A DNA stretch of 62,355 nucleotides from an uncultured Nitrosopumilaceae archaeon (GCA_963825095.1 CAWGRV010000008.1:1-62355), one strand, 5' to 3'; shown: positions 9,556 to 48,020, counted from the stretch's first letter. The notes: generated by a model from the sequence alone, not told the origin. Program-made: numbers and translations.

Positions 9556-10104
9556 GATTTCAGTTTTATTTATTTCTTCTCTTTTCTTGGTGTGTTTGCG
9601 AGGACCAATGGAATAATATGGCTAAAATTATGACCTTTCTTTTTCAGCAAATTAAGCAAATAAGGAATAAAGTAATTTGCATTCTTATTTACGTTTTCTT
9701 GTTCGTTATAAATAGTTATCATGTCAAATAATTCAATTTCTAATTTAAGAACCATTTTATTCTTCTCCATATTAAAAATCAGGTTTTCTGTTATAATGGA
9801 TGATTATTTAATTCCATAACATAATTCTTTGGTTTCTTAAAAGTATAAAAAGAGGGCAATTCTTTATATCTCAATCCATTCGTACAGAACCATAATATTT
9901 GGTTATCAGAAAATTTTCTGCACTCTGCACACATCTGTAATAGTGATCTGGCGGAACAAGAATTCGCAGATAAGATACAATATAATTTATCAAAATGAAG
10001 AACATCAAAATTCACTCCGGCTTCGATTGTTGGACGAATAAATCACCACTTGATATTCAGACCAAAATTTATTAACATCTTTAAGTTTTTGCTTTAAAGT
10101 ATCG

Positions 10105-12062
10105 TCACTTTTTGCTGTATGGAGAATTGCTTTGATCGTCCATTTCTTTCAATTTATCATAGTATTTATTTCCAATAGTTGAAGACAAAGTAACCAAAAC
10201 AAATTTTTTACCCAAATGAATGTCTTTAAAAAAATGAGCATCAAAATAATCTCGAGCACCAACAAAGATAAAGTTTTTAGAATCAGGTTTATACAAATTT
10301 TCAATGACTTTAACATTGCCAAAATCTTTAAGAAAACTATAAGCTCGATTACAAAAATCACCATCTAAAGCCAACACTTTATTCGAATTCTTGATGATAT
10401 TTTGCAATAATTCAAAAGTATTTCTCTTTTCACTCTTTGAGAGTTGGAGATGAAAAATGATTACATAAGAGATTCGATTTCATCTAATATTATTAAATCA
10501 TAACTTGGGATATCAATTTCTAAGTTATCATCTACTTCTAAAGCAGTCCAATATTTTAGGAAGAGATTCTATTTGACAAATCAGTTTATCTGAACCAAAA
10601 TTTTTATCTAAGATAATTATCAAAACCAAAAATAGAAAAATTATGAAATATATCAAGAGTAAAACTTTGGCGATGAGAAACCCATAAAACTCTTTTGGGC
10701 TTATAAGTGGATATAATTTTCTTCACCATCGTTGTTTTTCCTGTTCCGTAGCAACTCAATATTCCGAGATGATTTGGTGTCTTTTCCTTGATACCAATGA
10801 ACTATGTTATTTATGACTTTAAAATTATCACCATGATTATTGTTAATTGAATTACATCTTGTTTCTCTGATCAAATGCTTTCTTTCTATTTTAATAGTTT
10901 CAAATAATTCCTTGATCTAAATTTTTTGGTAATTTGTTATACTTTTCCGGATTATCCAATTGCGCCAAATATTTTAAAGTCCCCATTTTTAAATTTTTCT
11001 TTTGAAACTTCGCCATTTAATAATACATATCACTTGGATCATATTTATCACTCTTTTTACTCCATTCATCCCACATATCCAAAGCATCACAATTACAATT
11101 AAATAGAATCATTCCTACCTGTAACCAATCATGATAATTGTCAGCTCTTTCAGCAGATAAGCATATCTAACAAATATTTTTGAATTCATCAAGGGGAATC
11201 TCTTTATTGGTATTTTTAAATTGTTCCTTTACTTCTTTTACAATTCTGTTTCTTAGTTTTTTTACCGCTAATAATTTCATTTACTTCATCCACATGAATC
11301 AATTTACTATTCGGTTTTATATAAGTGACTAAACAATCATAATAAAAACTCTTTGGTATCGCCATTGTATTCGTAATTAATAGCATAATCAAATTCTAAT
11401 TTGTTTTGTTTTCCCATTTTAGAATTCCATAACATCCTAAAACAACCATCTTTATAAATGGAGTGATCAAAAATATGTTTATCGACTAATGGATGTTTGA
11501 TTTGTTGCATGAATTCTTTCAGGTGATAAATATTTTCAAAATGTATAAATGGATAGATGATATGAGCTGATAATTTTTTTTTAGGATTATCACTTCTTGA
11601 GAACAATAACCGTTGGGTTTTCAATACCATATTTCAATAATTCAGTATTGATTAATTTAATAATCGCGGAAACCGTAACAGTATATAAAGTTTCTCTATC
11701 TGCATTTTTAGGGATTTTATCATTCGGATAATCCATATCAGCATGCAAAACGACTTGATTATTTTTACGATATTGTTCATAAATATGTTGAGTTTTATTT
11801 TTGATAATAGTATAAATAGTATCATAGTCGGCTAATATATAATATCTTCGCGCCTGATTTAGGCAGTTACATCTTTAGAGAAAAATGGCAGGCTTAAATT
11901 GTTTTCTTTTGCATAATCTAATGCGGGATCTTTTTTGATAAAAACATAAATTCGCGTTTGCTCCGGATTTTTTTTATCTATAGTAATTATGTGAGGAGTT
12001 TTATCTCCTACATCAACTACAGAACAATCTACACTACGAGCAGAGCTAAAGTTTTTAATCAT
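10105..12062 (-). pseudogene. decayed P-loop helicase-like gene (Walker A GYCGTGKTT, motif II IILDEIE) with primase/origin-binding-protein-like N-terminal region, broken by many frameshifts and stops
   Basis: There is no ORF longer than 100 aa across about 2 kb. Manual minus-strand translation, hopping frames, gives consecutive pieces: MIKNFSSARSVDCSVVDVGDKTPHIITIDKK...; ...DYDTIYTIIKNKTQHIYEQYRKNNQVVLHADMDYPNDKIPKNADRETLYTV...; ...HSIYKDGCFRMLWNSKMGKQNKLEFD...; ...CYGTGKTTMVKKIISTYKPKRVLWVSHRQSF...; ...IILDEIESL...; ...NKVLALDGDFCNRAYSFLKDFG.... Together these are consistent with one helicase gene of roughly 650 aa or more. Confidence 0.45.
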
Positions 12063-12878
12063 TTTTGGGTATATATATATATATCCAGAAATAATTTTTT
12101 TGATAGTAAACGTACTGAAAAAATAAAAAACTATATATTTTTATTTGATCGAATAATAAATGTGCGTTTTGCTTAATTTCCTTTTCCATCAGTTGTATCT
12201 TTTTGTATATGAGAAATCAATATAACCCTAAATCCGCACACATATATCTCAAAAAAGTTAATATATAATGTTTAACTTATTTCTTCTGATACCATCCACA
12301 TTTTACTTTATCAAAATATTTAAACAATTTATCTTCCATTCTTTCAAATGTTTCTTTATTGATATCTTTAATAATATCCAGTCGATCTATTCCAATAAAT
12401 TCTGTCAAATCATTTATTTCTTTCTTTCCGATATTTTTCAATATTTCATTAATAAACTTTAGGGCCATTTTATATTTATCCGAAGATTTATCGACACTTG
12501 TTATTATTAATTTTTGACCTTTTTTGATTTTTTTATTCTTATTATCAGAATATATTCTAAAATTATTAGGATGGTCTTGTCATCTAATTCATCAATTTAT
12601 CTTTGATGGTAGAAATCATTTGTTCTTTCTGCTCCATCTTTAATATTATATTAGATAAATTTATTTGTCTTTAGATTGCTTTTTGATAAAAATTAACGTG
12701 TTCAACATGAGTCCTCTTATATTAGACATTGCGTGACTTAAGTACGTCTGAATGTCCCGAAAAAATGGAATTACATTTTCATCATGCTGAAAAAACAGAA
12801 TTCATATCGCCACCACATTTCTTTACCATACTATGAATCTAATCATATATTTCAAAATTATCATTGCGATAGATAAAC

Positions 12879-17335: not shown

Positions 17336-17447
17336 CGCCCAGTATGCATGCGTGGAATTATTAATAAAAGAATGAAGGCGCTTAGACAGTGCATTGAGAT
17401 ATGAACATTGTATGCAAACCAATGCTCGGAACCATCGCCGCCGAGCA

Positions 17448-18953
17448 CAATGCTAGTAACTTAAGTAAATTTATTCATATTTTTTTTGATAATTTTAACA
17501 TTTTAATGGAAATGATTTCCTAAAATTTCATTTTTATAAATTTCAGAAAATTTCGCAAGAATTCTAAATTATTCATTTGGTCGGCTGTTGTACTTTCTTT
17601 CTGCAAAACATGAATACCTCCGGTAATCCGGCTGCCCATAAATTGATCATCTTATTACATTTTTATAAAAATGATAATGCATACCAATTTATGGGAAAAT
17701 AAAGATTATTTTTTTTCCACAGTGCAATACATGCGACCCTTACTACCCCATTTTGACCCCTTTGGTTTTTTCCTAATTCTCTTATGATGTCTGTTTTTTT
17801 GTATCAATGTAACGGTATCTTCTATTATTGATAATATTCTTAGGATTTTATTTATTCCCGTTTTGCGAGTATTGCCATAAAATAATGCATATAAGAGCTT
17901 CTTTACAAATTTCAGAGTATTCTTCCTGTTTATTTTATATTTATCGCAATTTATATTTTTCATAGCAATGTTTTCGAAAAAGCTATCAATAATAAAAATG
18001 AAATTATGTATAGCTATGTCCTGTTTAACTTTTCCAATTTCTTTTGATTCAATATCTTTCAAAGATAAATCATATTTAGCGTGTCTAAAATTTGTTTCGA
18101 TTTTCCATCGTTTCCAATATAAATCCATTAAAAAATTCATATCTTTATCTATCAATGTTGTTCCCAAAAAATAATCATTTCCATTAAGTTGGTATTTAAT
18201 TAGTTTCAACTTTATTAATGTTCCATCTATATTGATGTTTATTATTTTCTCTGAACAGTTACCATTTAGATGTTTTTTTACAATTGTCAGCGTTGAAACT
18301 AATCGAAATACAACATTTATGCCCTTTCCAATAAGTGTTCTAAATAATTCCTTACTAAAATAACCTCTATCCATTAATAAAACATCGCCAGGTCGAATAT
18401 ATTTTAATTGTCTTTTCAATATGAATCTTTCATCGGAAGAATCACTAATGGTATAATTGATGACCATTTCTTTATCGACATCATATAAACAACTTAACAA
18501 AGCGGTACAGTAATTTTGATTTTTGTCCAATTTAAATCCATTTTCACTAAGGGTAGCATTTAAGTTAATACCACTACCATCAACGGCAATATATCTTTTT
18601 TTATTATCTGCATATATAAAATCAATAAGTGATTGATTAAATATTTCAAAATGGGAATGATCAATATTAGATCGTTTATTAATAATGGCCGTTTTAGTTA
18701 CATTTAAAACATTCTTATATTTTAAAGACGAATTAACGATATCATAACTTAATTTCTCATTATTCTTACGGGAGAGAATATACACGATATCCTTAAAAAA
18801 AACCTTTCTCTTCCGTATCGAAGTGTAAAAATTCAAATCAGATAAAACTCGATTAATATAAATTTTAAAATTTTTAATGATTTTTATAGGGTCCATTAAA
18901 AATAATATATATAAAAAAATTAAAATTATAAAAAACTTAAGTTACCAGCATTG
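17448..18953 (-). mobile_element. IS4-family insertion sequence, copy 1 (1506 bp; 18-bp imperfect TIR CAATGCT[A/G]GTAACTTAAG)
   Basis: Left end caatgctagtaacttaag at 17448-17465; right end cttaagttaccagcattg at 18936-18953. The interior is about 99% identical to copy 2 at 40090..41595. No clean TSD here: the flanks cgccgagca and tgctgagcg are imperfect inverted GC-rich hairpin sequences. Confidence 0.8.
17706..18896 (-). CDS. IS4-family DDE transposase
   Basis: 396 aa. DDE residues lie in AVDGSG, LLMDRGY and KIETNF. LYWKRWKIETNFRHAK matches the IS4-family Y-(2)-R-(3)-E-(6)-K signature exactly. Confidence 0.85.
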   Translation of the reverse strand: MDPIKIIKNFKIYINRVLSDLNFYTSIRKRKVFFKDIVYILSRKNNEKLSYDIVNSSLKYKNVLNVTKTAIINKRSNIDHSHFEIFNQSLIDFIYADNKKRYIAVDGSGINLNATLSENGFKLDKNQNYCTALLSCLYDVDKEMVINYTISDSSDERFILKRQLKYIRPGDVLLMDRGYFSKELFRTLIGKGINVVFRLVSTLTIVKKHLNGNCSEKIININIDGTLIKLKLIKYQLNGNDYFLGTTLIDKDMNFLMDLYWKRWKIETNFRHAKYDLSLKDIESKEIGKVKQDIAIHNFIFIIDSFFENIAMKNINCDKYKINRKNTLKFVKKLLYALFYGNTRKTGINKILRILSIIEDTVTLIQKNRHHKRIRKKPKGSKWGSKGRMYCTVEKK

Positions 18954-19191
18954 TGCTGAGCGTAGGCTCAGTGAACGGAGTTCACTGGCTCCCCGAGCAA
19001 ACGAATGCAAAGTGAGCTTCAGCTCACCTTGCTGGCGCTCGATAATGCTGCGCATTCTCAAACTCCCAAAAAAGTTCGGGGAAGTTTGGCAAAAGCGAAG
19101 CTTTTGCTGAGCCGAAGGCTCAGTGAACTCCGTTCACTTGCTCGCAGAGCGAACGAATGCAAAGTGAGCTGAAGCTCACCTCGCTGGCGCT
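18954..19191. repeat. GC-rich palindromic repeat element (two partial tandem units) abutting the IS right end
   Basis: About 58% GC in a roughly 27% GC genome. Hairpins gctgagcgtaggctcagtgaacggagttcactg and gtgagcttcagctcac; a 44-bp direct repeat at 18997-19040 and 19149-19192. Related copies occur at 19757-19982, 35964-36156, 48021-48146 and 56620-56780. Confidence 0.7.
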
Positions 19192-19756
19192 CAATGCTGG
19201 TACCTTAAGGAAAAAGTATGTCAGTCTCCGAAAATATAATTGTTGTCTTCAACGACGAAAAGATCATCTCCGTCATATAAATCCGTTTCCTATCACACAT
19301 GAGTGCCACGCGATAGTACCATGCGATGGATGAATTGCATCAATTTGAATGATTCCACGCAAATAATTCCAACGCATGGTTCCTTCGCGTGAAATTCATA
19401 TTTTACTTTCTGTGACTTCCCAAAGCACTTCTGCCCTCGCCGCCATTCCTTCTTAATTTATTGTGAGGCCATTATTTGCAGTACTTTAAAGCCTCACATA
19501 AATCGCCCGCGCCAAAGGCGCATTAAGTATTTAATCCTTTTCCTATCACACATTAGTGCCGCGCGATAGTACCGTGCTTGAGATAAATTGCATAAATCCC
19601 AAGTGTTCTATGCAAAGAATTCCAATGCATGGTTCCTTCGCGCAAAATAAAAGAAAAGAACCGCTTAAAATAATGTTCATGTGTATCACTTTTAAAATGG
19701 AAAATTTCAAAAATTATTGGGCGTTTATCATACTTTTCCTTAAGGTACCAGCATTG
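19192..19756. mobile_element. MITE-like non-autonomous element (565 bp) with 19-bp perfect TIRs CAATGCTGGTACCTTAAGG and 10-bp TSD CGCTGGCGCT
   Basis: The left TIR at 19192-19210 is the exact reverse complement of 19738-19756. The flanks 19182-19191 and 19757-19766 are both cgctggcgct. The TIR differs from the IS TIR only at AAC versus ACC. The interior has no long ORF, a roughly 110-bp direct repeat (19279-19390 versus 19540-19650) and a hairpin tgtgaggc...gcctcaca. It is inserted inside a GC-rich repeat unit; the uninterrupted homologous unit is at 19021-19060. Confidence 0.65.
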
Positions 19757-19982
19757 CGCTGGCGCTCGATAATGCTGCGCATTCTCAAACTCCCAAAAAA
19801 GTTCGGGGAAGTTTGGCAAAAGCTTTGCTTTTGCTGAGCCTTCGGCTCTGTGAACTTCGTTCACTTGCTCGTAGAGCAAACGAATGCAATTCGTCGAACG
19901 GAGCGAGATAATACGCAGTATTATTATGAGTCGAGCATTAGCGAGGCGACCTTCGGTTCGCTGAAAAATTGACTCTCAGGAG
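19757..19982. repeat. GC-rich palindromic repeat element
   Basis: gcgctggcgctcgataatgctgcgcattctcaaactcccaaaaaagttcggggaagtttggcaaaagc... is nearly identical to 19030-19095. It continues with the ...gagcaaacgaatgcaa... and gagtcgagc...gagataatacgcagtattatt modules shared with the 48021 and 56620 copies. Confidence 0.65.
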
Positions 19983-20019
19983 CAATTTATTATTTCGCTC
20001 GTTAATTTTCGCAAAATAA

Positions 20020-20027
20020 AAAATTGA
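20020..20027 (+). promoter_or_regulatory. AAAATTGA early-promoter-like octamer upstream of the P450 gene
   Basis: Exact octamer 53 bp upstream of the ATG at 20080. Confidence 0.4.
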
Positions 20028-20079: not shown

Positions 20080-21723
20080 ATGGGCTTTTATACAGTACTG
20101 TTAGTTACGATACCGGTCATCTTTTTAGTTTCACTTTTATTCAGAAAACGGCGATCCACGCCTTACGAAAAGTATCCTGGTCTCCATGGACGTTCAGGAA
20201 AAATGCTTTCCATGTATTACGTTATGACGAAGGGAGTTTGGAACTTTGTTATGTATCTTTACGAGAAATACAAATCATCCGATTACAGACCTATTCATTT
20301 TACTACGATGATGGGAAACCCGGCCCTATTTATCTACAATCCAGATCACATAATACAAGCGCTAACTGATATTGATCATTTTGAATGGACCAGTGAACGC
20401 GAAACGGTCGAACACGTTGGACGACTTCTCCCCGATGCAATTATAACGACATGGGATTACAAAGAGTGGCATCCAAAGAGAGCCCGGATAGTTTATTACT
20501 TGAGTGGTCGTGCGCTTGAAAAGGCAAAAGAATTCTCGATCCGGTGTGCACGCGAAAATTTTCTTCCCGAATTGAAGAAAATTGCGGACGGCAGGGCAGT
20601 GGATTTAGGACCTATCATTTTCAGGTACGCGACTTTGTCTACGTTGATGGAAATGTTCGATCTAAAACGCGAAGATATTCCGGATCAGACTTTGGATCAC
20701 ATCACAAAACTTTTCTCTTACATTTGGAAACGTATATTTAACCCCCTGATTCTCTTAAGAATGAAAATGGATAATATGATGCCTTTTCTTGGTTTGGAAA
20801 AAGAATACAAAGAAGATGTGCGAGCATTTTATGATTTATTAGCACCTCACCAAGAGCGTCTGAGATATGCGGATACATTGGGCGGATCAACGGTTCGAGG
20901 TCATACTAAATTTAATCCGAACTTTAAGAGCGCAGCAGTTTTTGCAAAATCGATCTTGAATATAGAAGAAGCCGAACTTGAACAACAGATGAAAGATCAT
21001 TATGCTGGATTAGAAAAAGAACGAGATGATCTTCACCATGTCTCATTCTATCTAGCCGGTAAACTGAAACTACCCGAAGATCAATTAGGGAAATTTGCAG
21101 GTCATCTGAGCGACGGTAATCCCATTGATTTACAAAAAGTGGTCAACGAAACATTGACCCTCATGTTAGGAGGCGCAGAAACGAATGCTATATTCTTCCA
21201 ATGGATTCTTCTACACATGTCTGCCACTCCTGCCACTCAACAACGCGTTTATGAAGAATTAAAAGACAAAGAACTGGTACCGATGCCCGAACGAAAGGGG
21301 CTTATCAATAATATTGTTCAAGAAGTATTCAGATTATCAGGTCCAACTTATTACAGTCAACGGGGTTGCCATACAAAAACAATACTTCAACCGGGAAATT
21401 TCGAAGTTCCAGCTGGCACAATCATGACCTTTTCACAATTACTACAAAGTACACTGGAAGAGAATTTTCCAGATGCACTAAAATTTGATCCGGATAGATG
21501 GGCACAAGAAATGAAGCCCAAAGCTGGTACTTTCCTACCATTTGTGAAGGGAAGAAGAACATGTCCTGGAGCGGAACAAGCCCAGTTCGAGGCGGCCTTA
21601 TTCATAACAGTTCTTTTCCAGAATTTTAGAATAGAACGCGCTGATGATAAAGAAATAGGAAAGCTTTGTGGGCTTACAGTCATGCCGGATCCACCCATTA
21701 TGTTAAAAATAAAGGCCGTGTAA
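20080..21723 (+). CDS. cytochrome P450 monooxygenase with N-terminal membrane anchor
   Basis: 547 aa. TM segment LLVTIPVIFLVSLLF, EVFR (ExxR), FDPDRW (PERF-like), and heme-binding loop FLPFVKGRRTCPGAEQA (FxxGxRxCxG). The gene is noticeably GC-richer than its surroundings. Confidence 0.85.
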   Translation: MGFYTVLLVTIPVIFLVSLLFRKRRSTPYEKYPGLHGRSGKMLSMYYVMTKGVWNFVMYLYEKYKSSDYRPIHFTTMMGNPALFIYNPDHIIQALTDIDHFEWTSERETVEHVGRLLPDAIITTWDYKEWHPKRARIVYYLSGRALEKAKEFSIRCARENFLPELKKIADGRAVDLGPIIFRYATLSTLMEMFDLKREDIPDQTLDHITKLFSYIWKRIFNPLILLRMKMDNMMPFLGLEKEYKEDVRAFYDLLAPHQERLRYADTLGGSTVRGHTKFNPNFKSAAVFAKSILNIEEAELEQQMKDHYAGLEKERDDLHHVSFYLAGKLKLPEDQLGKFAGHLSDGNPIDLQKVVNETLTLMLGGAETNAIFFQWILLHMSATPATQQRVYEELKDKELVPMPERKGLINNIVQEVFRLSGPTYYSQRGCHTKTILQPGNFEVPAGTIMTFSQLLQSTLEENFPDALKFDPDRWAQEMKPKAGTFLPFVKGRRTCPGAEQAQFEAALFITVLFQNFRIERADDKEIGKLCGLTVMPDPPIMLKIKAV

Positions 21724-21879
21724 AATTTTTTTATATCAAAATCTAAAAAAAGTTTTTCTAATTCACGGCAACCAAATTGACTGCCCTATAGAATTGCAGC
21801 AAAAATTAGATTAAGGACTAAGTATCCAAAAATCCAATTTTATTTTGAAATTCAGTTTTTTATTTGTAAATCCAAATTG

Positions 21880-22401
21880 CTAATTTACTTCAAGTAACCT
21901 GTAATGCTCAATATATTTATCAACAATAGTATAAACATATTTTATTTTATTTTTTTCTTTACTAATTCGACATTTACTAAATTTTATCATTTTCAAAAGA
22001 TAATCCATACATTTCGTTCTTTCGGGTGTATACTTATCCAAAGTGGAGACTAGTAAGCCATCATTGGCATTGGGCTGATGAATTATTGGAGCATCTAACG
22101 TAAATACTTTTTCATTAGTTTCTCTTGTCGTAGAATTGTAAAACTTAAAGTACTCGTTTATAACGTCATGAATTTGTAAAGATAATTTTAATTTGCAATA
22201 ACAAAACGAAACAATTGTAATCAAACCGTAATGAAAACCAAAATGACATAAACCTTCGGGCTCATTTCTTGACTTTTTGTAGATGTCCATTATGTCGTTT
22301 TCCTTAATAAAATTGCAAATTTCATAGAAATGATTTTGACCATAAACTTCGATGAATAACTTTTCATATTTGTTTAGATTCTCCTCATCCATGATTTTCA
22401 C
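21880..22401 (-). CDS. hypothetical protein
   Basis: 173-aa intact ORF; no motif recognised. Confidence 0.4.
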   Translation of the reverse strand: MKIMDEENLNKYEKLFIEVYGQNHFYEICNFIKENDIMDIYKKSRNEPEGLCHFGFHYGLITIVSFCYCKLKLSLQIHDVINEYFKFYNSTTRETNEKVFTLDAPIIHQPNANDGLLVSTLDKYTPERTKCMDYLLKMIKFSKCRISKEKNKIKYVYTIVDKYIEHYRLLEVN

Positions 22402-22592
22402 TTATAATTATCGATATAAATATTTTTTTAGACTGAAATAATTTAATGGAAAAGTGTTTGTCGAGAAAGTGGAGCGCTGGTTCGATGGTGGTCAGGTATC
22501 GGCCAGTAAATAGAAAGATCTATTTTTTGTTCGAAAAATTGAACCAATAAGTATAAGATTATACTTTTACACATTTCTGTTGTAGATGAAAC

Positions 22593-22835
22593 ATGATGTA
22601 CGAAACGATGGACTTAGAAGAAACGAAGGACGACCCGGCGTTCGCAATAGATAAGTTATCAGATTTTATTCGGTCAGTTGCCGAATGCAAAATTTGTTAT
22701 GGCATCTTGAAAAATGCCAAAGAAACGAACTGTTGTCATACTGTCTTTTGCGAAGCATGTATATCTCAATGGGTAAATGTGAGTCGCGGAACATGTCCGA
22801 TATGTCGCGTATTTTTATACCTATTCCAAACCTAA
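22593..22835 (+). CDS. small C3HC4 RING finger protein
   Basis: CKICYGILKNAKETNCCHTVFCEACISQWVNVSRGTCPICR. Confidence 0.5.
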   Translation: MMYETMDLEETKDDPAFAIDKLSDFIRSVAECKICYGILKNAKETNCCHTVFCEACISQWVNVSRGTCPICRVFLYLFQT

Positions 22836-22944
22836 TTTGGAGACTGAGCTCAAAAAATTTGTTTTCTTAGTCGATGAGTATTATCAACAAAAATTTGGCA
22901 TACTTTCCGTCCTCTCCATTTTCCTTTTTGTCACCTTATTACAT

Positions 22945-23460
22945 TTAAATCGCTAAACTCTTTCTGTAAAAATTCTCCAAATCTTTTTCTTTTATTTTTC
23001 TTAGTCCATTTTTTATATTCCTCATCAATTTTTCCTCTTTGTAATTATTTTCTTTCCTTCTCACCATTGATTTCAACTTCGAAAATACTTTTTCTATTGG
23101 ATTATATTCTGGCGAATATGGTACGTTGTATATTATATTGTGATTATTTTTCGCCACATATTCTTTTAATCGTTTCGTGTGATGTATTCTCGCGTTGTCC
23201 ATCAATAAATATTTATTTTCGTCAATTTTGCTTATTAACTCTTCTATGAACTTTAGAAATGTCTCGCCATTTGCCGAATCTTTTATTATCTTTGTATGCA
23301 ATATTTTTCTGTTTGAAATCGCACATATCAGAGTGTATCTTTTGAAGTGTTTAAAGTATTTTTTTAATATCATTTTTTTGCCTTTTTCCGACCAACCGTA
23401 ATTATTTGCAATTCTATTATCAAAATGCGTTTCATCTATTGATATTATATTTCCCTGCAC
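22945..23460 (-). pseudogene. Tc1/mariner (IS630-like, DDE_3) transposase, catalytic-domain-only fragment
   Basis: 171 aa: DETHF...GWSEKG...LICAIS...LLMDNARIHH...YNVPYSPEYNPIEKVFSKLK is the classic DD(34)E catalytic core. The N-terminal HTH DNA-binding domain is missing, because upstream is occupied by an HNH gene. Confidence 0.7.
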
Positions 23461-23505
23461 TCCTTTCAGGAGTTTCGCTGAGCGAAGCGAACGAGTTCGC
23501 CTAAA

Positions 23506-23961
23506 TTATTTAAAATTCGAATAATTTCTCTTATTATATTTTGCTCTATTCTCTATTTTCCATAAAGGTTGTAAATTTCGAAAATTGAAACACTCAAAAA
23601 TATTTTGTTTTATAGAGAAATCAAATGAAGAAACAGGAATAATATGGTCTATTTCCCATTCTCCATAATTTTTAAAATTCATACCTTCGATAAGCAAATC
23701 AAAAATGTGTTTTTCTAATTCCTGAATAGAACAACCAATTATTTCCTGATAGGAATTGTTGAGGATTAAATTGTTATCCTTGTATATCTTATAGATCCTA
23801 TTTTTAATATTATCATAGATTTTAAAAAATCCGCCTTTATTTCTCTGATTTTTTGCTTTTTGAATAAGTTTCTTTTTAATTCTTTTTTGTTTATATTAGT
23901 CTTTATAAAAGAGTGTTATTTTTTCAGAAATGTATGCCTGTTTATTGAATTCTTCACTCAT
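23506..23961 (-). pseudogene. HNH endonuclease, apparently frameshifted
   Basis: The C-terminal reading frame ...GMNFKNYGEWEIDHIIPVSSFDFSIKQNIFECFNFRNLQPLWKIENRAKYNK carries an HNH motif. That frame extends upstream without an ATG, to a TAA at about 23890. An ATG at 23961 opens a different frame, MSEEFNKQAYISEKITLFYKD*, so an N-terminal piece and a C-terminal piece sit in different frames. Confidence 0.5.
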
Positions 23962-23978
23962 ATAAGTTTAAATATTAG

Positions 23979-24254
23979 CTTTTATTTAAATATAAAGAAA
24001 ATTTCAAATTTATAGCGAAGTTTACTTCGCCGAGCAAAGCGAGACGCCAGAGGCGTGCATGGAAAGCAGAAGAAATTTGTTTAAGACATGGCTTGCTACG
24101 TTGCGAAAACGTTCATAATGGCGAACCAAAAAAACAAATTTTAATGAACCGAGATTTCAATGCGGCAATGAATATATTAAGAAAAGCAAAATGCATATTG
24201 AAGAATTTGCCAATACCAGAATATTTGCAAAGGAAAAAAGAAAGAAAAGATTAA
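23979..24254 (+). pseudogene. TnpB/Fanzor-like (IS200/IS605 OrfB) C-terminal relic
   Basis: An open frame with no start codon encodes ...AWKAEEICLRHGLLRCENVHNGEPKKQILMNRDFNAAMNILRKAKC.... The (D/N)RDxNAAxNIL motif is characteristic of TnpB/Fanzor RuvC-III C-termini. Only about 90 codons remain. It overlaps a GC-rich hairpin at 24005-24060. Confidence 0.5.
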
Positions 24255-24588
24255 AAAATCAGTCCAGTTTCATCGACTAGGACATAGGCAAAAAGGCGAA
24301 ACCAAATAAACCGATACAGAAAAGACGCGCCCGAGTAGCTCTTTTACAGTATGAAAAAACTAACCATTCCAAAAATACTCAAAAAAAATGCTCAAAAAAA
24401 AAATTTGAAAATTTCTACAAATAAAAAATGGAATGGGTATAAAATTTTCTGAGAGTAAATGAATAGATCATCACTCGGAGTCTTAAAATTGGACATATTA
24501 AAGATGCATTGGAGTGTTATCAAAGAAGGTCAGGTGACAATAAAAAAGCTGAGTGTGAAACCTATTTGGCTATATTGGAAAACAAATT

Positions 24589-25722
24589 TTAAATTTTTTT
24601 CTTTATCCTAATATATTTTTTTCCACCTCTTTGGGTCATTTTATGTGTCTCCGTAAGATTCATATTTAGACTTCTGATCTTTTCAAAATAAGTTTCTATG
24701 TCTATGTTTTGGCCTTTTGCTATTTTACTAAGCATTGACACCATAAAAATGAGAATGCTGTTAATAGTGCTAGTAATTTTTTCAAAATTTGGTATTTTGT
24801 TTTCTTCGAGTTTTTGTTTTACTTTATTTGTCGAATCCAATATTTTGTGACCCAATCTATTAAAAATGTCTTTATCACTTTTGATACTATCGTAAAAATG
24901 TAAAGGGAAATAATTAGCCGATTGTCTACCATATAAAATTTCTCTAATTTTCTCCTGGCCGAACCACATTTCTAAAATAACAAGTGCTATTGCCCACCAA
25001 TCGGAGGTTTGAATTACTTGTATTGATACTTCTTTATTTAGTGAGTCATTCAACTGTGGAGAGGCATAAAGTGGTGTGATATCAGTTACTTTACATATAT
25101 TAGTACTAGAATGAAAACAAAACGTGTCGAAATCAGTAATTGCTAGTGAATTATCATGCAAATTGACTAGTATGTTATTCGGTTTTATATCTCCATGGGC
25201 TGCTCCTTCCTTGTGTAAATAATGGACTGCCTCGAATAATTCTTTTACCCATTTAATAAATTGATCAAAAAAATATTGAGGATTTAATGTTATATTTTTC
25301 TCAAAAGAGCCCTTTTTTTCTATTTCTCGTAACAGATCGGTATTAAAATACTTCATTAAAATATAACCACAAATATTGTCTTTATTTTCAATACCTAAAT
25401 AGCAATTAATGTTATCATGTTTGCATACCGTTTCAGTGGATAAAGATAGAAATCCCTTTTTGGAAAATTCGTTAAAGATTTCCATTTCATTTTTAAATTT
25501 TTCTTTATTTTCTTCATCGTTCAATAGCTCAATTACTTTCAGTGCATAACTCGACTCTTGAGTTTTCGGATCTTGTAATAGCAGTAAATAGACTTTGCCG
25601 TAAGCTCCCTGCCCTAAAACACGAGTCACCCTAAATCCTCGGAGTAATTTTACTTTCAGCTCCTTTCCCAAATCGACATTTTGGTTTATATATTTTGATA
25701 AATCACAAGACTGTTCAGTCAT
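24589..25722 (-). CDS. Ser/Thr protein kinase
   Basis: VLGQGAYGKVY (Gly loop), YALKVI (VAIK), HGDIKPNNILV (catalytic loop) and ITDFDT (DFG-like) within a 377-aa ORF. Confidence 0.8.
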   Translation of the reverse strand: MTEQSCDLSKYINQNVDLGKELKVKLLRGFRVTRVLGQGAYGKVYLLLLQDPKTQESSYALKVIELLNDEENKEKFKNEMEIFNEFSKKGFLSLSTETVCKHDNINCYLGIENKDNICGYILMKYFNTDLLREIEKKGSFEKNITLNPQYFFDQFIKWVKELFEAVHYLHKEGAAHGDIKPNNILVNLHDNSLAITDFDTFCFHSSTNICKVTDITPLYASPQLNDSLNKEVSIQVIQTSDWWAIALVILEMWFGQEKIREILYGRQSANYFPLHFYDSIKSDKDIFNRLGHKILDSTNKVKQKLEENKIPNFEKITSTINSILIFMVSMLSKIAKGQNIDIETYFEKIRSLNMNLTETHKMTQRGGKKYIRIKKKI

Positions 25723-25798
25723 TTTATTTTTTCTATAATATTAAAGATGACAAAAGAATGAGAATTTAAGGAGTTTCGAAATCAAATTGATGCATCTA

Positions 25799-25806
25799 AA
25801 AAATTG
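25799..25806 (+). promoter_or_regulatory. AAAATTGA early-promoter-like octamer upstream of the Rieske oxygenase gene
   Basis: Exact octamer 51 bp upstream of the ATG at 25857. Confidence 0.4.
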
Positions 25807-25856
25807 AAAAGTTTTAGTAATTCAATATAAAATATGATAGATAATCAATAATAATC

Positions 25857-27044
25857 ATGTTGTCTATAAATGCCGATTATTTTTTATACTTATTTTTGAT
25901 AATAACGATAGGGGTTAGCGGTTTCCTGGTCAAACGTTTGTATACCATTTTATTTTTACCCTATGAAATAAATGAACCAAAAATTGAAATTGAAATTGCC
26001 AGATCAAAAAATCCATTTTCGAGGAAATTCGGGAAATTACCTCCGCCATTCCCGAATTCCTGGTTCAGGATAGCATTCTCGAAAGAGATTCCAGTTGGGA
26101 CTGTAAAAAAAGTCGATGTCCTTGGACACCAATTGGCCATTTTCCGGGGCGAAAATGAAAGAGTATGTGCCTTGGATGCTTACTGTCCTCATTTAGGTGC
26201 CAATTTGGGTGATGGTACGGTTACGGGAAATTGTATACAATGTCCTTTTCATGGGTGGGAATTCAATGGTTCAGATGGAAAATGCATGCGCATACCTTAT
26301 AATGAGAATGTACCTGATTTTGCACGTGCCAAGACATATACTGTCCTAGAATCAAATAATATGATATTGCTTTGGCATGATGCTGAAAATAGAGATATTC
26401 AATGGTATCCACCTTTTGAAATTAAAGCCGATGATATTTCAAACGGCGAATTTCTATTTCACGGATCATCGGAACATTTTATCACCTGCCATATTCAAGA
26501 CATACCCGAGAATGGACCAGATCGAGCCCATTTAAATTTTCTGCATAAAAAACTAATTTTAGAATGGATTCCAATGGCAGAACATAAATGGGATGCAACC
26601 TGGCAACCTGGAAACGAGAAAGGAAAAGATGAACATTTAGCCTATATAAATTTGACACAAGAAATGGTGATCGCCGGATTTAGAATTCCTGGTACTTTTA
26701 TTTCTGTTAAAATCATTCAAATTGGACCTGGACTTGTTCAACTAATTTTCAATACATTTCTTGGAAGAATAGTGGTAATAGAAAGTGTTACACCAATAGA
26801 ACCGTTATTACAAAAGGCGGGTCATGTCGTATTCGCAGAAAAGAAAGTGCCACGCTTCATCGCCAAATTTGTTCTCTGGGGTCTATTAAAACAATTCGAG
26901 AGAGATGTACCCATATGGAATAAAAAAACTTTTATCTCTCAACCACTTGTAGTTAAAAACGATGGACCGTTATTAGTTTATCGTCGCTGGATGGCCAAAT
27001 TCTATTCAGAAAATTCTTTTAGGATAGAAGCGAAGGATTGGTGA
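25857..27044 (+). CDS. Rieske [2Fe-2S] non-heme iron oxygenase, Neverland/DAF-36 (cholesterol 7-desaturase)-like or KshA-like
   Basis: N-terminal TM segment. Rieske motif CPHLGANLGDGTVTGNCIQCPFHGWEF (CxH-x17-CxxH). Mononuclear-iron motif DIPENGPDRAHLNFLH (D-x3-D-x2-H-x4-H). Confidence 0.8.
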   Translation: MLSINADYFLYLFLIITIGVSGFLVKRLYTILFLPYEINEPKIEIEIARSKNPFSRKFGKLPPPFPNSWFRIAFSKEIPVGTVKKVDVLGHQLAIFRGENERVCALDAYCPHLGANLGDGTVTGNCIQCPFHGWEFNGSDGKCMRIPYNENVPDFARAKTYTVLESNNMILLWHDAENRDIQWYPPFEIKADDISNGEFLFHGSSEHFITCHIQDIPENGPDRAHLNFLHKKLILEWIPMAEHKWDATWQPGNEKGKDEHLAYINLTQEMVIAGFRIPGTFISVKIIQIGPGLVQLIFNTFLGRIVVIESVTPIEPLLQKAGHVVFAEKKVPRFIAKFVLWGLLKQFERDVPIWNKKTFISQPLVVKNDGPLLVYRRWMAKFYSENSFRIEAKDW

Positions 27045-33219: not shown

Positions 33220-34706
33220 ATGCAGTCTATTTATTGCCTATTTTTTCTTGCATTCGTTTTGGTTTCTTATGCCTCCAAAAAGCCAAACATAATTTTCATT
33301 CTCACCGATGACCAAGATTACATGTTGGCTGGTTGGAATGATAAAAGTTACGAACTGATCGGAAAAAAAGGTATTGAATTTTATAGTTATTACGCACATT
33401 CACCGATATGCTGTGTTTCAAGAAGTGCCATCTTAACAGGGAGATACATGCATAATATCCGAGAAACTTCATTTCCAGGAATTTGTTCTGAAAATCGTGA
33501 TTGCGGCTGCATGTATATAAATACTGATTCAGACTTCGAAATGCATAACATTGCTGTTTACATGCAAGATCTTGGTTACGCGACAGGTTATTTTGGCAAA
33601 TATTTAAATAGTGAGGCACTCACTCCCTATTGTTCCACCAAAGGACAAAACAATACCGCAGCACCTTCGTGGGATCACTTCAGTATACAATGCGATATCA
33701 CTTATTTCAATGATACTTGGAGTGTAAATGGGAAAGTGTCCAAGTTTCCGGACTACACGATCGCAAAAATAGGAAATGATAGCGTAAAATGGTTAAATAA
33801 CATTTTGTCTAATCCGAATCACAAACCGGTTTTCGCGATCCTTGCACCACATGCCCCACACGCACCGTACACGCCGGCTCCGTGGTATGTCAATGCTACT
33901 ATTCCTGGTAGCAATCCGGTCTTACCGTCCTACAATTATTCAGCCATGGATCACCCAGAATTCATTGCTGATATTCCTCCCCTGAATCAAGTTTTGGAAA
34001 CAGAGTTAGAATTCATTTTTAAGCAGAGAGCAAGAACAATTTTGTCAGTCGATGATGTTACAACGGCGGTTTTAGATGTACTTAAAGAGTATGAAGAACT
34101 AGATAATACTTATATATTTTTTTCTTCAGATAACGGATATCATTTGGGTGAGTTTCGTTTGAATGCGGCAAAAACCCATCCTTACGAATTTGATATAAGA
34201 GTACCATTTGGGGTTAGAGGACCAAATATCATACCCGAGACGAAAGGATTTCTCCAATCTCGGGGATAGATTTAGCTCCAACTTGGCTTGAATTGGCTGG
34301 ACGAAAAGAAAAGCCCCGATTTATGGATGGAATATCTTTTGCGTCCTTATTAACTAACAATACTAGTAATTTTACTCAAAATGTAATCTTGATCGAATAT
34401 TACTCCATTAATAATGGGAGCAAAAATCTGTGGGATAATGGTAATCAGGCTTCAAATAACACACATAGATCCATAAGAATCATAGATCCAATCATGGGAA
34501 ATTTGTCTTACATGGAATACGCCGAAGTATCCGATTGGTCCTTTAGTGATATAATATTCTATGAACTATATGACTTAGCTGAAGATCCCTATCAGTTAAA
34601 CAATTTATACTCTACGATTTCGCCGAAAATGAAAACATTCTTGCATGATTCTCTGTTGAGGCTATGGAATTGCGGTGACGCGTATACTTGGAATAAAACT
34701 TCTTGA
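33220..34706 (+). pseudogene. sulfatase (N-acetylglucosamine-6-sulfatase-like) interrupted by a 1-bp frameshift
   Basis: ORF 33220..34269 (signal peptide, IIFILTDDQDY, SPICCVSRSAILTGRYMHN) and ORF 34293..34706 together align along the intact paralog 52440..54149. Comparison with the paralog (KVFVPISGVDLAPTWIELAGG) shows that a single missing C in the run ctcc[c]aatc near 34255 restores ...GFLPISGIDLAPTWLELAGRKEKPRFMDG.... Confidence 0.7.
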
Positions 34707-37984: not shown

Positions 37985-38050
37985 AAACGACAAAAATAGA
38001 AAATCAAAACTTGATTGTTATGCGATAATTAGAAACTATGTTCAAAATCC

Positions 38051-41595: not shown

Positions 41596-41893
41596 AGCAC
41601 CGCAAGCTTTTGGAAATATAACAGCAAATGGCGTAATTGGAGTTTTGACTTTCAACGGTCTAAATCAGGCAGCCGGGTCAACAACATCAGCCACTGTCAC
41701 AAATTCATTTGCTGATGCAAATAGTTTTATCTTTTTGACAATACAGAGTTACACAGGAACATATTTTATAAATGGTTATCCTAAGTTTGAAATAGGCGGT
41801 AAGAGTGCGGGCAGCTTTACACTTATCTTAAACAATACTGGAACAACAGCATTAAGCGGCACAGTTGAAGTCGCTTATCAATTATTGAATTAA
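41596..41893 (+). pseudogene. 3' part of the IS-disrupted collagen/beta-helix gene
   Basis: Reading in the 38051 frame, across one copy of the TSD, gives ...SPAP-QAFGNITANGVIGVLTFNGLNQAAGSTTSATV...AYQLLN* with no frameshift. The track ORF 41645..41893 begins at an in-frame TTG. Confidence 0.7.
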
Positions 41894-43599: not shown

Positions 43600-43812
43600 A
43601 GATATAATTTTAATAGAGAAATTAGAAAAATTATTACTATAGATAATTTGGTAAATATATCCCGTTTATGATATTTAGCCAAATTATTTGCTGTCGAAGA
43701 ACATTTTGAGGTTATTCATTCACGCTGTGTGTGATTACCAAAACGTCAAAAGACTTAGAATTTAATTCTTTTGATTGCTAAAAAAAACATAATTCAGACG
43801 GATATGTACAGA

Positions 43813-46311
<2,499 letters not shown>

Positions 46312-46638
46312 TTATGTGTTTTTTTATGACTCTTTGAGTGTCGGCGTTTTCCACTACCGAAAGATTTTATTTTGGACTTTTTATGTGACGTTTCTATTTT
46401 TTTCAGAAGTCTCTTTTTTTTAGCACTTTTTTTACCCATGATTGTATAACATTTCTTGCTATATTTTTTTGCCAACAGCAAGATATTATTTTACTTGTTA
46501 AATGATGATTATTGGTTATACCAACTGAAATAATATAATTTTCTAAAAATGACAAGATTTTATTTTTATTATTTGCTTAACCGGTAAATAATAAATTTAA
46601 TAATACAAAATAAATTTCTTGGTTGGTTATTTCACAAC

Positions 46639-47967: not shown

Positions 47968-48020
47968 TACTATAGTAGTAAATAAGATTTTTATTCAATT
48001 TGTGGATGTGAAATTTCAAT

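What the first reader, a model, noticed from the sequence alone, without database searches (positions are those of the whole stretch)
20080..27044. Cytochrome P450 and Neverland-like Rieske sterol desaturase within 7 kb: candidate sterol-modifying pair, with P450 compositionally atypical
A membrane-anchored P450 (20080..21723) and a membrane-anchored Rieske non-heme iron oxygenase of the cholesterol-7-desaturase/KshA type (25857..27044) both have AAAATTGA-type promoters. They are separated by a Ser/Thr kinase and mobile-element debris. Both enzyme classes act on sterol or steroid rings. The P450 ORF is markedly GC-richer than its neighbours and directly follows IS/MITE/GC-repeat DNA, consistent with relatively recent acquisition.
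Basis: partly seen in the sequence, partly recalled or inferred. Interest (0 to 1): 0.55.

Follow-up and report, generated by a model that had tools for sequence, protein, structure and literature searches.

The report
Giant-virus sterol desaturase plus orphan P450
A mimivirus-like giant virus carries an intact copy of the eukaryotic enzyme that turns cholesterol into 7-dehydrocholesterol, 4 kb from a cytochrome P450 that fits no known family; the first is a credible virus-encoded sterol-modifying gene, but the two are not shown to work together.

Summary
Both genes are real and intact.

**Rieske gene (25857-27044).** It belongs to the Neverland/DAF-36 cholesterol 7-desaturase family. It is 40-52% identical to eukaryotic members (E 1e-90 to 1e-130), against 1e-33 for bacterial KshA. 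All metal-binding motifs are present, and it has an N-terminal membrane anchor.

**P450 (20080-21723).** It has all P450 signatures, but it is an orphan. Among 1.84 billion representative proteins only one cluster exceeds 50% identity, and everything else is 30% or less. Sequence and fold searches do not place it in a sterol CYP family.

**Linkage.** Orthologues of both genes co-occur in two other giant-virus-like sources. On a 460-kb contig they lie about 320 kb apart, so the 4-kb spacing here is not conserved. The P450's conserved neighbours are a DHRS9-like short-chain dehydrogenase and a fatty-acid-hydroxylase-like/P450 fusion. Neither is in this window.

**Recent acquisition.** This is not supported. 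GC3 and codon usage of the P450 sit within about 1 SD of the window's genes, and its GC excess is mainly at first codon positions. Its orthologues are 66-67% identical, more conserved than the Rieske protein.

**Verdict.** The Rieske gene is a new viral member of a known enzyme family. The "sterol pair" reading is only partly supported.

The parts
17445..18957 (-). Insertion sequence with a DDE_Tnp_1 transposase (ORF 17706-18896). Terminal inverted repeats are GCACAATGCT(A/G)GTAACTTAAG. A second copy lies at about 40087-41599.
   Evidence: Pfam E 1.6e-15. Second transposase ORF 40348-41538. Repeat family D4. Ends read. Identity between the copies was measured only over parts of the element: an exact run of 113 nt then a mismatch, 300 nt reported as 100%, and 98% over the last 60 nt.
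18958..19960 (.). GC-rich (0.43) block of dispersed hairpin-containing repeats. It includes a MITE-like unit (about 19186-19765) whose inverted ends resemble the IS ends. Related units lie at 48014-48127 and 56727-56784.
   Evidence: Repeat families D9, D12, D14, D18 and I1-I4. Self-BLAST. Sequence read. GC profile.
19965..20027 (+). Two AAAATTGA motifs (19965-19972 and 20020-20027), a mimivirus-type early-promoter octamer, 115 and 60 nt upstream of the P450 start.
   Evidence: The promoter function is inferred from established knowledge of Mimiviridae, not tested here.
20080..21723 (+). Cytochrome P450, 547 aa, with an N-terminal signal anchor. It is an orphan lineage-specific family. All heme-binding and catalytic signatures are intact.
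   Evidence: Pfam. Homologue searches. Alignment motifs: G364-G-A-E-T368, E415-x-x-R418, F469-x-P-x-R473-W, F488-x-x-G-x-R-x-C495-x-G497. Hydropathy. AF2 model with pTM 0.70.
21880..22401 (-). ORF of 173 aa with no recognisable domain, lying between the two enzymes. Not linked to them.
   Evidence: No Pfam match.
22593..22835 (+). Small RING-finger ORF (80 aa) with AAAATTGA 58 nt upstream.
   Evidence: Pfam zf-C3HC4_2 E 1.8e-8. Motif at 22535.
22945..23697 (-). Mobile-element debris: a truncated DDE_3 (IS630/Tc1-like) transposase catalytic domain (22945-23460) and a 63-aa ORF with a weak HNH-like match (23506-23697).
   Evidence: Pfam DDE_3 E 1.4e-28, catalytic domain only. HNH_4 E 0.002, 18.4 bits against a curated cut-off of 22, covering about 15 residues.
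24589..25722 (-). Ser/Thr protein kinase, 377 aa. It is divergently oriented to the Rieske gene. There is no evidence of a functional link.
   Evidence: Pfam Pkinase E 8.5e-28.
25800..25807 (+). AAAATTGA motif 57 nt upstream of the Rieske start codon.
25857..27044 (+). Neverland/DAF-36-type Rieske non-heme-iron sterol C7(8)-desaturase homologue, 395 aa, with an N-terminal membrane anchor.
   Evidence: Pfam Rieske plus KshA_C. 40-52% identity to cholesterol 7-desaturases. Motifs C110-x-H112...C129-x-x-H132 and E218-x3-D222-x2-H225-x4-H230, and D350, are all in invariant columns of A1. Forms a clade with two viral orthologues in 85 of 100 bootstraps.

Best explanation
The window is a contig of a mimivirus-like giant virus.

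**Rieske gene.** Gene 25857-27044 is a captured eukaryotic Neverland/DAF-36 Rieske oxygenase. It most likely sits in the host endoplasmic reticulum through its N-terminal anchor and takes electrons from host reductases, since no redox partner is encoded in the window. It would then introduce the C7(8) double bond into delta-5 sterols, for example cholesterol to 7-dehydrocholesterol. This would change the sterol make-up of infected-cell or virion membranes, or supply a delta-5,7 precursor for further oxidation.

**P450.** Gene 20080-21723 is an intact, ER-anchored P450 that founds an orphan, lineage-specific CYP family. It probably oxidises a lipid-type substrate. In relatives its conserved genomic partners are a membrane-anchored DHRS9-like short-chain dehydrogenase and a fatty-acid-hydroxylase-like/P450 fusion, not the Rieske gene.

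**History and linkage.** Both genes carry the AAAATTGA early-promoter octamer. Both have been inherited within a small clade of giant viruses. Their 4-kb proximity here results from rearrangement in a region rich in mobile elements, not from a conserved cluster.

**Shown versus inferred.** Shown: domain identities, motif integrity, family placement of the Rieske protein, orphan status of the P450, co-occurrence, and lack of conserved adjacency. Inferred: viral origin, ER location, electron source, substrate, and any shared pathway.
For: **Rieske protein**
- Pfam Rieske plus KshA_C.
- 739 homologues. The top hits are 40-52% identical, and those that carry a source name are named cholesterol 7-desaturase, nvd or DAF-36 (fish, insect, Capsaspora, Balamuthia, Acrasis).
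- KshA scores only 1e-33, and aromatic-ring oxygenases 1e-9 or weaker.
- It retains every invariant column of a 27-sequence NVD alignment.
- It forms a viral clade with P0006 and P0008 in 85 of 100 NJ bootstraps, nested among protist sequences.
- The family's activity (cholesterol to 7-dehydrocholesterol in animals, Tetrahymena and Capsaspora) is described in PMC4967820 and the references it cites.

**P450**
- Pfam match, with all signature motifs.
- Only P0002 and P0003 are similar (66-67% identity); everything else is 30% or less.

**Co-occurrence**
- P0003 and P0008 lie on the same 460,155-nt contig.
- P0002 and P0006 come from the same JGI sample.

**Conserved P450 neighbours**
- SDR and FA_hydroxylase-like/P450 fusion.

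**Giant-virus character**
- AAAATTGA is enriched and positioned upstream of genes.
- Genes are dense, and the gene content includes ankyrin, BTB, RING, collagen-like and IS genes.
Against: - No enzyme activity was measured.
- No ferredoxin, cytochrome b5 or reductase is present in the window.
- The window contains no giant-virus hallmark gene, so viral origin rests on promoter motif, gene content and relatives.
- Co-occurrence in three sources may only reflect that these are close relatives sharing most genes.
- The P450's best weak matches mix sterol and non-sterol families.
- The FA_hydroxylase match of the fusion protein is below Pfam's threshold.
- The tree is neighbour-joining only, and the sister group of the viral clade is unresolved.
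Confidence: 0.6

Rival explanations
1. True two-enzyme sterol pathway. The Rieske desaturase and the P450 act in sequence on the same sterol, for example C7 desaturation followed by P450 side-chain hydroxylation or desaturation. Their proximity here reflects functional coupling.
For: - Identical distribution of the two gene families across the three known sources.
- Both proteins are N-terminally anchored and both genes carry AAAATTGA.
- The P450's top PDB matches by sequence and by fold include CYP24A1, CYP11A1 with cholesterol, and CYP46A1.
- In Capsaspora a Rieske C7-desaturase and a P450 C22-desaturase act in sequence on cholesterol (PMC4967820).
- In relatives the P450 sits beside a DHRS9-like SDR and a domain related to sterol-desaturase/FA-hydroxylase enzymes.
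Against: - The two genes are about 320 kb apart in the 460-kb relative.
- The P450 is 30% or less identical to any named family. Equally good matches are CYP4C1-like, BM3, CYP3A4 and CYP97C1.
- Co-occurrence among close relatives is expected for any two lineage-specific genes.
Confidence: 0.3
2. The P450 was acquired recently by horizontal transfer along with mobile-element DNA, which would explain its higher GC content.
For: - It lies directly downstream of an IS, a MITE-like unit and GC-rich repeats.
- Its GC is 0.406 against 0.26-0.30 for the adjacent genes.
Against: - GC3 is 0.359 against a window mean of 0.311 (SD 0.048), and codon-usage divergence is 0.056 against a mean of 0.054.
- The excess is concentrated at first codon positions (GC1 0.51 against about 0.38 for the window's ORFs).
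- Orthologues keep high GC1 (0.47) and the same GC2 (0.35), while their GC3 is lower in the AT-rich relative and higher in the GC-richer one (0.24 and 0.40).
- 66-67% identical orthologues exist in two other viral sources. No cellular donor exceeds 30% identity.
Confidence: 0.07
3. The contig is cellular (an AT-rich protist), so both genes are ordinary host sterol and lipid genes, not viral genes.
For: - No giant-virus hallmark gene lies in the window.
- No relatives were found in IMG/VR with five single-protein scans.
- The nearest non-viral Rieske relatives are protist transcripts.
Against: - Genes are uninterrupted and densely packed on both strands.
- AAAATTGA is enriched (37 against 21.6 expected) and lies upstream of 16 of 46 ORFs (within 150 nt; nearest copy 34-77 nt from the ATG).
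- Paralogous ankyrin, BTB, RING and collagen-like families and prokaryote-type IS elements are typical of Mimiviridae.
- The relatives lie on a 460-kb contig with similar content, including a NUMOD4/HNH endonuclease.
- The three Rieske proteins share a shortened N-terminal region unlike that of the protist proteins.
Confidence: 0.05
4. The Rieske protein is a KshA-like steroid 9-alpha-hydroxylase or another catabolic Rieske oxygenase, not a C7-desaturase.
For: - It has the Pfam KshA_C domain, and its best solved-structure matches are KshA enzymes.
Against: - No NVD structure appears among the PDB matches, so the PDB ranking cannot discriminate.
- Against the sequence database, NVD/DAF-36 proteins score 320-450 bits and KshA scores about 119 bits.
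- It is nested inside the eukaryotic NVD group.
Confidence: 0.05

Closest known systems
Neverland (Nvd) / DAF-36 / Tetrahymena Des7p cholesterol 7-desaturase family (Rieske non-heme-iron oxygenases)
   Same: - Same two-domain architecture (Rieske plus KshA_C).
- All Fe-S and mononuclear-iron ligands are present.
- N-terminal membrane anchor.
- 40-52% identity over 85-100% of the length.
   Different: - It is encoded by a giant-virus-like genome with a viral early-promoter motif.
- The region between the anchor and the Rieske domain is shorter than in cellular members.
- Together with two viral orthologues it forms its own clade.
- Activity is untested.
KshA, the oxygenase of 3-ketosteroid 9-alpha-hydroxylase (actinobacteria)
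   Same: Same fold family and the same Pfam C-terminal domain. It also acts on a steroid ring.
   Different: - Similarity is much weaker: 119 bits, covering only residues 59-190 and 343-385.
- KshA is soluble, works with the KshB reductase, and is catabolic.
- No KshB-like gene is present here.
Giant-virus cytochromes P450 (Mimivirus, Tupanvirus, Pandoravirus, klosneuviruses; Lamb et al. 2019, cited in PMC11814380 and PMC9270025)
   Same: A P450 of unknown function in a giant virus, with no adjacent redox partner and no identifiable cellular donor.
   Different: - Identity to every viral P450 model in BFVD is 18% or less.
- It forms a separate three-member family. In relatives that family has a conserved SDR neighbour and a neighbouring FA_hydroxylase-like/P450 fusion.
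Sterol side-chain P450s (CYP11A1, CYP24A1, CYP46A1) and CYP4-type fatty-acid hydroxylases
   Same: These are the best, though weak, sequence and fold matches. All signature motifs are shared.
   Different: - Identity is 13-30%, mostly over the C-terminal half only.
- An insertion of about 90 residues (259-350) is modelled with low confidence.
- It falls below the 40% family criterion for all of them.

Membership tests
Neverland/DAF-36 cholesterol 7-desaturase | Rieske [2Fe-2S] motif C-x-H...C-x-x-H | tested here: met
   C110-P-H112 and C129-P-F-H132, all in invariant columns of A1. Pfam Rieske E 8.7e-24.
Neverland/DAF-36 cholesterol 7-desaturase | Mononuclear non-heme iron motif (E/D)x3Dx2Hx4H plus a distal Asp in a KshA_C-type catalytic domain | tested here: met
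   E218-N-G-P-D222-R-A-H225-L-N-F-L-H230 and D350 are invariant in A1. PF19298 E 2.3e-20.
Neverland/DAF-36 cholesterol 7-desaturase | Closer to characterised or annotated NVD/DAF-36 proteins than to KshA or other Rieske oxygenases | tested here: met
   320-450 bits to NVD-type proteins against 119 bits to KshA and 61 bits or fewer to other families. Nested in the NVD group in the NJ tree. A maximum-likelihood tree with outgroups was not run.
Neverland/DAF-36 cholesterol 7-desaturase | N-terminal membrane anchor (microsomal enzyme) | tested here: met
   A single hydrophobic segment within about residues 1-33, and none elsewhere.
Neverland/DAF-36 cholesterol 7-desaturase | Catalyses C7(8)-desaturation of cholesterol or other delta-5 sterols | not testable with these tools
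   Needs heterologous expression and GC-MS of sterols.
Cytochrome P450 superfamily | Cys-ligand loop FxxGxRxCxG, K-helix ExxR, I-helix (A/G)Gx(D/E)T, PxRW/F motif | tested here: met
   F488-V-K-G-R-R-T-C495-P-G497; E415-V-F-R418; G364-G-A-E-T368; P471-D-R-W474. Pfam E 9.6e-35.
Named sterol-metabolising CYP family (CYP51, CYP710, CYP11, CYP24, CYP27, CYP46) | At least 40% identity to members (the nomenclature criterion), or robust grouping with the family | tested here: not met
   Best match outside its own cluster is 30% identity or less. PDB sequence E-values are no better than 1.7e-16, over the C-terminal half only. Foldseek matches are 13-18% identical and mix sterol and non-sterol families.
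Conserved sterol gene cluster (P450 plus Rieske as a unit) | Adjacency conserved in related genomes | tested here: not met
   On ERZ25039558 contig_44097 the Rieske gene is at about 131 kb and the P450 at about 454 kb. No shared flanking genes.
Conserved sterol gene cluster (P450 plus Rieske as a unit) | Co-occurrence of both genes across related genomes | tested here: inconclusive
   Both are present in all 3 known sources. With only three close relatives this does not separate functional linkage from shared ancestry.
Mimiviridae-type early gene | AAAATTGA octamer within about 40-120 nt upstream of the start codon | tested here: met
   At -60 and -115 for the P450 and at -57 for the Rieske gene. 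The motif is significantly enriched in the window. Expression timing itself was not tested.
Recently transferred gene (compositional outlier) | GC3 or codon usage clearly outside the genome's distribution | tested here: not met
   GC3 z is about +1.0. Codon-usage divergence is 0.056 against a mean of 0.054 (SD 0.024).

The most novel reading that the evidence does not exclude
A small clade of giant viruses encodes its own multi-enzyme sterol-remodelling route. The components would be the Neverland-type C7-desaturase, the orphan P450, a second P450 fused to a fatty-acid-hydroxylase/sterol-desaturase-like membrane domain, and a DHRS9-like dehydrogenase. The route would convert host or prey sterols into delta-5,7 sterols and then into oxidised steroids that change viral-factory or virion membranes or act as signals. 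This would give the first defined substrate class for giant-virus P450s.
Probability: 0.15. Interest if true: 0.8.

Novelty: new member of a known kind. Interest (0 to 1): 0.45.

Why it matters
**Open question.** Giant-virus P450s have been known since 2009-2019, but none has an assigned substrate. Reviews only speculate that these viruses alter host sterols or lipids (PMC11814380, PMC9270025).

**What this adds.** A Neverland/DAF-36 orthologue is an enzyme with one well-defined reaction, cholesterol to 7-dehydrocholesterol. Finding it intact in three related giant-virus-like genomes is concrete, testable evidence that some giant viruses modify sterol rings. In the full-text library, no paper combined Neverland with giant viruses. 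None combining a Rieske protein, sterols and Mimiviridae described such an enzyme.

**How to follow it up.** The finding gives a short list of co-inherited candidates to test on sterols: the orphan P450, the fusion P450 and the SDR.

**Limits.** Capture of single host metabolic genes by giant viruses is common. The functional link between the two genes in this window is not demonstrated.

Tried and rejected
1. **IMG/VR scans with the single P450 and Rieske proteins.** No relatives. The 27-sequence Rieske alignment gave only one distant giant-virus locus (L006, 31% identity) and one unrelated hit.
2. **Metagenome-contig scans.** The P450 alignment found nothing. The Rieske alignment returned 80 loci, mostly GC-rich and therefore probably bacterial KshA-like genes (organisms not checked). 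None carried an orthologue of the P450, the SDR or the fusion P450; the best P450 matches were only 24-27% identical.
3. **Profile search with distant P450 relatives in the word-indexed database.** It added only four weak hits.
4. **AF2 model and Foldseek.** They confirm the P450 fold but rank CYP11A1, CYP97C1, BM3, CYP3A4 and CYP46A1 almost equally, so no family could be assigned. The AFDB library was unavailable.
5. **Remnants of the SDR or fusion P450 in the window.** tblastn found none.
6. **Redox partners in the window.** None found. The HPGG hits are FG-GAP proteins, not cytochrome b5.
7. **Mimivirus-style 3' hairpins after the P450, Rieske and kinase genes.** Not significant (z -1.8, +0.3, +1.7).
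8. **Phage DNA database.** No match, as expected for a giant virus.
9. **Identifying the source record of the window.** Not on record. Three more window proteins had no IMG/VR relatives.
10. **Lamb et al. 2019 (PMC6589655).** Not held in the library.

Full report
**1. What is in the sequence.**

The ORF at 20080-21723 (+) encodes a 547-aa protein that matches Pfam p450 (E 9.6e-35). The ORF at 25857-27044 (+) encodes a 395-aa protein that matches Rieske (8.7e-24) and KshA_C (2.3e-20).

Several features lie between them:
- an ORF with no recognisable domain (21880-22401, minus strand);
- a small RING ORF (22593-22835);
- a DDE_3 transposase reduced to its catalytic domain (22945-23460, minus strand);
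- a 63-aa ORF with a weak, sub-threshold HNH-like match (23506-23697, minus strand; E 0.002);
- a Ser/Thr kinase (24589-25722, minus strand).

Upstream of the P450 lies an IS with a DDE_Tnp_1 transposase and terminal inverted repeats (17445-18957). A second copy lies at about 40087-41599, at least 98% identical over the stretches compared. A block of about 1 kb with GC 0.43 follows the IS. It is made of dispersed hairpin-containing repeats, and it includes a MITE-like unit of about 580 bp whose ends resemble the IS ends. Related units lie at 48014-48127 and 56727-56784.

Each enzyme has one hydrophobic segment, at its N-terminus.

AAAATTGA lies 60 and 115 nt upstream of the P450 start and 57 nt upstream of the Rieske start. 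The octamer occurs 37 times in the window against 21.6 +/- 4.5 expected. It precedes 16 of 46 ORFs in sense orientation (within 150 nt; nearest copy 34-77 nt from the ATG). The descriptive part of the finding is therefore correct.

**2. What kind of genome this is.**

The window is a complete 62,355-nt contig. Several features point to a Mimiviridae-like giant virus:
- dense, uninterrupted genes on both strands;
- the positioned AAAATTGA motif, which from established knowledge is the mimivirus early-promoter element;
- paralogous ankyrin, BTB, RING and collagen-like genes;
- prokaryote-type IS elements.

No hallmark gene (capsid, PolB and so on) lies in the window. IMG/VR holds no close relatives. 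Viral origin is therefore an inference, though a strong one. Two related sources support it. One is a 460-kb ENA contig and the other is a set of JGI contigs, and both have similar gene content.

**3. The Rieske protein belongs to the Neverland/DAF-36 family.**

The homologue search gave 739 hits. The best 120 are 38-52% identical over 81-100% of the query (E 1e-90 to 1e-130). Where a source names them, they are almost all called cholesterol 7-desaturase, nvd or DAF-36. They come from fish, amphibians, insects, molluscs, echinoderms, Capsaspora, Balamuthia and Acrasis.

Solved structures give only KshA (1.9e-33, partial coverage). More distant Rieske oxygenases follow at 1e-16 or weaker.

In a 27-sequence alignment the window protein keeps every invariant residue. 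These include the Rieske ligands (C110, H112, C129, H132). They also include the mononuclear-iron motif E218-x3-D222-x2-H225-x4-H230 and D350.

In a neighbour-joining tree of 121 homologues, the window protein groups with P0006 and P0008. The tree was rooted on a distant giant-virus homologue. The grouping is recovered in 85 of 100 bootstraps on a 65-sequence subset. The clade sits among protist and metagenomic sequences, with a Stenamoeba (Amoebozoa) transcript nearby. Its sister group is unresolved.

The family's known reaction is C7(8)-desaturation of cholesterol to 7-dehydrocholesterol. It has been demonstrated in insects, nematodes, Tetrahymena and Capsaspora (PMC4967820 and the references it cites).

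**4. The P450 is intact but an orphan.**

All signature motifs are present: I-helix GGAET, ExxR, PxRW, and the FxxGxRxCxG cysteine loop.

An exhaustive HMMER search was run over 1.84 billion representative proteins. Only one cluster is more than 50% identical (P0003, 68%). The next best matches are 24-30% identical (E 1e-32 or weaker). The word-indexed search adds P0002 (66%). Under the 40% nomenclature rule, these three proteins make up a new CYP family.

The best PDB sequence matches are CYP24A1 (1.7e-16), an ancestral CYP11A1, CYP170A1-like, CYP46A1 and CYP175A1. They cover only the C-terminal half.

An AlphaFold2 model (pLDDT 66, pTM 0.70) has the P450 fold, with an insertion of about 90 residues (259-350) modelled at low confidence. 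Foldseek ranks CYP11A1 with cholesterol, CYP97C1, P450 BM3, CYP3A4/5 and CYP46A1 within one order of magnitude of each other, at 13-18% identity.

The best viral model is a Terrestrivirus 'CYP4C1-like' protein at 16% identity. Named distant sequence relatives include insect CYP4C1-like proteins and a red-algal P450.

The protein therefore sits somewhere in the broad group that contains both sterol side-chain hydroxylases and fatty-acid hydroxylases. A lipid-like substrate is plausible. A sterol substrate is neither supported nor excluded.

**5. Are the two genes linked?**

*For.* The two families have the same known distribution. P0003 (P450) and P0008 (Rieske) lie on the same 460,155-nt contig. 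P0002 and P0006 come from the same JGI sample, 3300086555.

*Against.*
- On the 460-kb contig the genes are about 320 kb apart.
- Apart from the two genes themselves, no flanking gene is shared between the window and the flanks of the relatives. The one exception is a small fragment at 41597-41890.
- With only three close relatives, co-occurrence cannot be separated from shared descent.

*What is conserved next to the P450 in both relatives.*
- Downstream lies a 280-298-aa SDR with an N-terminal anchor. Its best solved relative is human DHRS9, a retinol/3-alpha-hydroxysteroid dehydrogenase-type enzyme (6e-16).
- Upstream and divergent lies a 697-aa protein in which a multi-pass N-terminal domain is fused to a second P450. 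That domain is weakly similar to FA_hydroxylase (PF04116, the family of sterol C4-methyl oxidases and C5-desaturases). The match is E 1e-6 but below the Pfam cut-off.
- Neither gene is detectable in the window. Here the P450 is flanked by mobile-element DNA instead.

This context slightly favours a membrane-lipid or sterol-oxidising role for the P450. It also shows that the 4-kb proximity to the Rieske gene comes from rearrangement, not from a conserved cluster.

**6. Composition and acquisition.**

| Measure | P450 | Window ORFs (mean +/- SD) |
|---|---|---|
| GC | 0.406 | 0.339 +/- 0.057 |
| GC3 | 0.359 | 0.311 +/- 0.048 |
| Synonymous codon-usage divergence | 0.056 | 0.054 +/- 0.024 |

The GC excess sits mainly at first codon positions (GC1 0.51), which reflects amino-acid content. 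The orthologues show high GC1 (0.47) and the same GC2 (0.35), while their GC3 is lower in the AT-rich relative and higher in the GC-richer one (0.24 and 0.40).

The P450 orthologues are also more conserved (66-67% identity) than the Rieske orthologues (50-51%). The idea that the P450 arrived recently is therefore not supported. Both genes appear to have been present in the common ancestor of these viruses.

**7. Most likely mechanism.**

*Shown.* There are two intact, separately promoted genes. Each encodes an oxygenase with a single N-terminal anchor. One is an NVD-family sterol desaturase homologue and the other is an orphan P450.

*Inferred.*
- Both are made early in infection and inserted into host ER-derived membranes.
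- They use host NADPH-P450 reductase and/or cytochrome b5, or partners encoded elsewhere in the genome. None is present in the window.
- The Rieske enzyme converts delta-5 sterols to delta-5,7 sterols.
- The P450 oxidises a lipid that may or may not be the same sterol.

My confidence that the Rieske protein is a sterol C7-desaturase is about 0.75. My confidence that the P450 acts in the same pathway is about 0.3.

**8. Novelty.**

P450s in giant viruses are known, and their substrates are unknown. A Rieske pheophorbide-a-oxygenase domain has been noted in Phycodnaviridae.

No paper in the searchable library combines Neverland with giant viruses, and none combines cholesterol 7-desaturase with Nucleocytoviricota. 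The two papers that mention Rieske, sterol and Mimiviridae together do not describe such an enzyme. One is the pan-genome survey read; the other is an unrelated paper on mitochondrial ORFans.

One JGI auto-annotation already labels P0006 'cholesterol 7-desaturase'. IMG/VR holds one further, distant NVD-like gene in a giant-virus MAG (L006).

The finding is best described as a new viral member of a known enzyme family, sitting next to a new orphan P450 family. It is not a new kind of system.

Noticed in passing
L001 7742-12575 and L008 2-4233 (relatives, outside the window): A conserved three-gene arrangement around the P450 orthologue. Upstream and divergent is a 697-aa fusion of a multi-pass FA_hydroxylase-like domain (sub-threshold PF04116; HxxHH-type motif in L008) to a second P450. 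Downstream is a membrane-anchored SDR whose best PDB relative is DHRS9. All of this is absent from the window.
   Followed up: partly
L006 9764-11146 (IMG/VR GVMAG-M-3300014493-9): A second, independent giant-virus NVD-like Rieske gene. It is 460 aa, 31% identical, and has a low-complexity N/Q-rich insertion. It lies directly downstream of a gene that resembles a mitochondrial-carrier protein by eye (no domain search was run).
   Followed up: partly
window 17445-18957 and about 40087-41599: Two copies of an IS of about 1.5 kb (DDE_Tnp_1 transposase, 21-nt terminal inverted repeats), at least 98% identical over the stretches compared. This suggests recent transposition. It is also a possible source of assembly or rearrangement breakpoints.
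   Followed up: partly
window 18958-19960, 48014-48127, 56727-56784: A family of GC-rich dispersed repeats that contain short perfect hairpins (for example CAGTGAAC-GGA-GTTCACTG and GTGAGC-TTCA-GCTCAC). It includes a MITE-like element of about 580 bp (19186-19765) whose ends resemble the IS ends.
   Followed up: partly
window 9570-12520, minus strand: About 3 kb with only short, consecutive minus-strand ORFs. One carries a P-loop (GTGKTT). It looks like a frameshifted or decayed large gene, possibly a helicase/primase-type NTPase.
   Followed up: no
window 159-896 (-) and 2267-3880 (+): Two further genes possibly related to lipids or oxidation: a CTP_transf_1 cytidylyltransferase (CDP-diglyceride synthase/dolichol kinase family, E 6.6e-29) and an FAD_binding_4 plus BBE flavin oxidase (5.5e-23 and 6e-11).
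   Followed up: no
window 33220-34706 and 52440-54149: Paralogous sulfatase genes (75-79% DNA identity). The first copy is split into two ORFs (Sulfatase and SGSH_C), so it is probably disrupted.
   Followed up: no
window 36221-40165, 42259-46481, 46639-49511: A GC-rich (0.40-0.49) block of collagen-repeat/beta-helix (pectate-lyase-like) genes and tandem FG-GAP paralogues. These genes, not the P450, are the real compositional outliers of the window.
   Followed up: no
window 50334-50479 and 58664-58803: Tandem duplications of 73 and 70 nt in intergenic DNA. The repeats at 50407-50479 and at 58664-58803 begin with the AAAATTGA/AAATTGA promoter-like motif, so promoter regions appear to be duplicated.
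   Followed up: no
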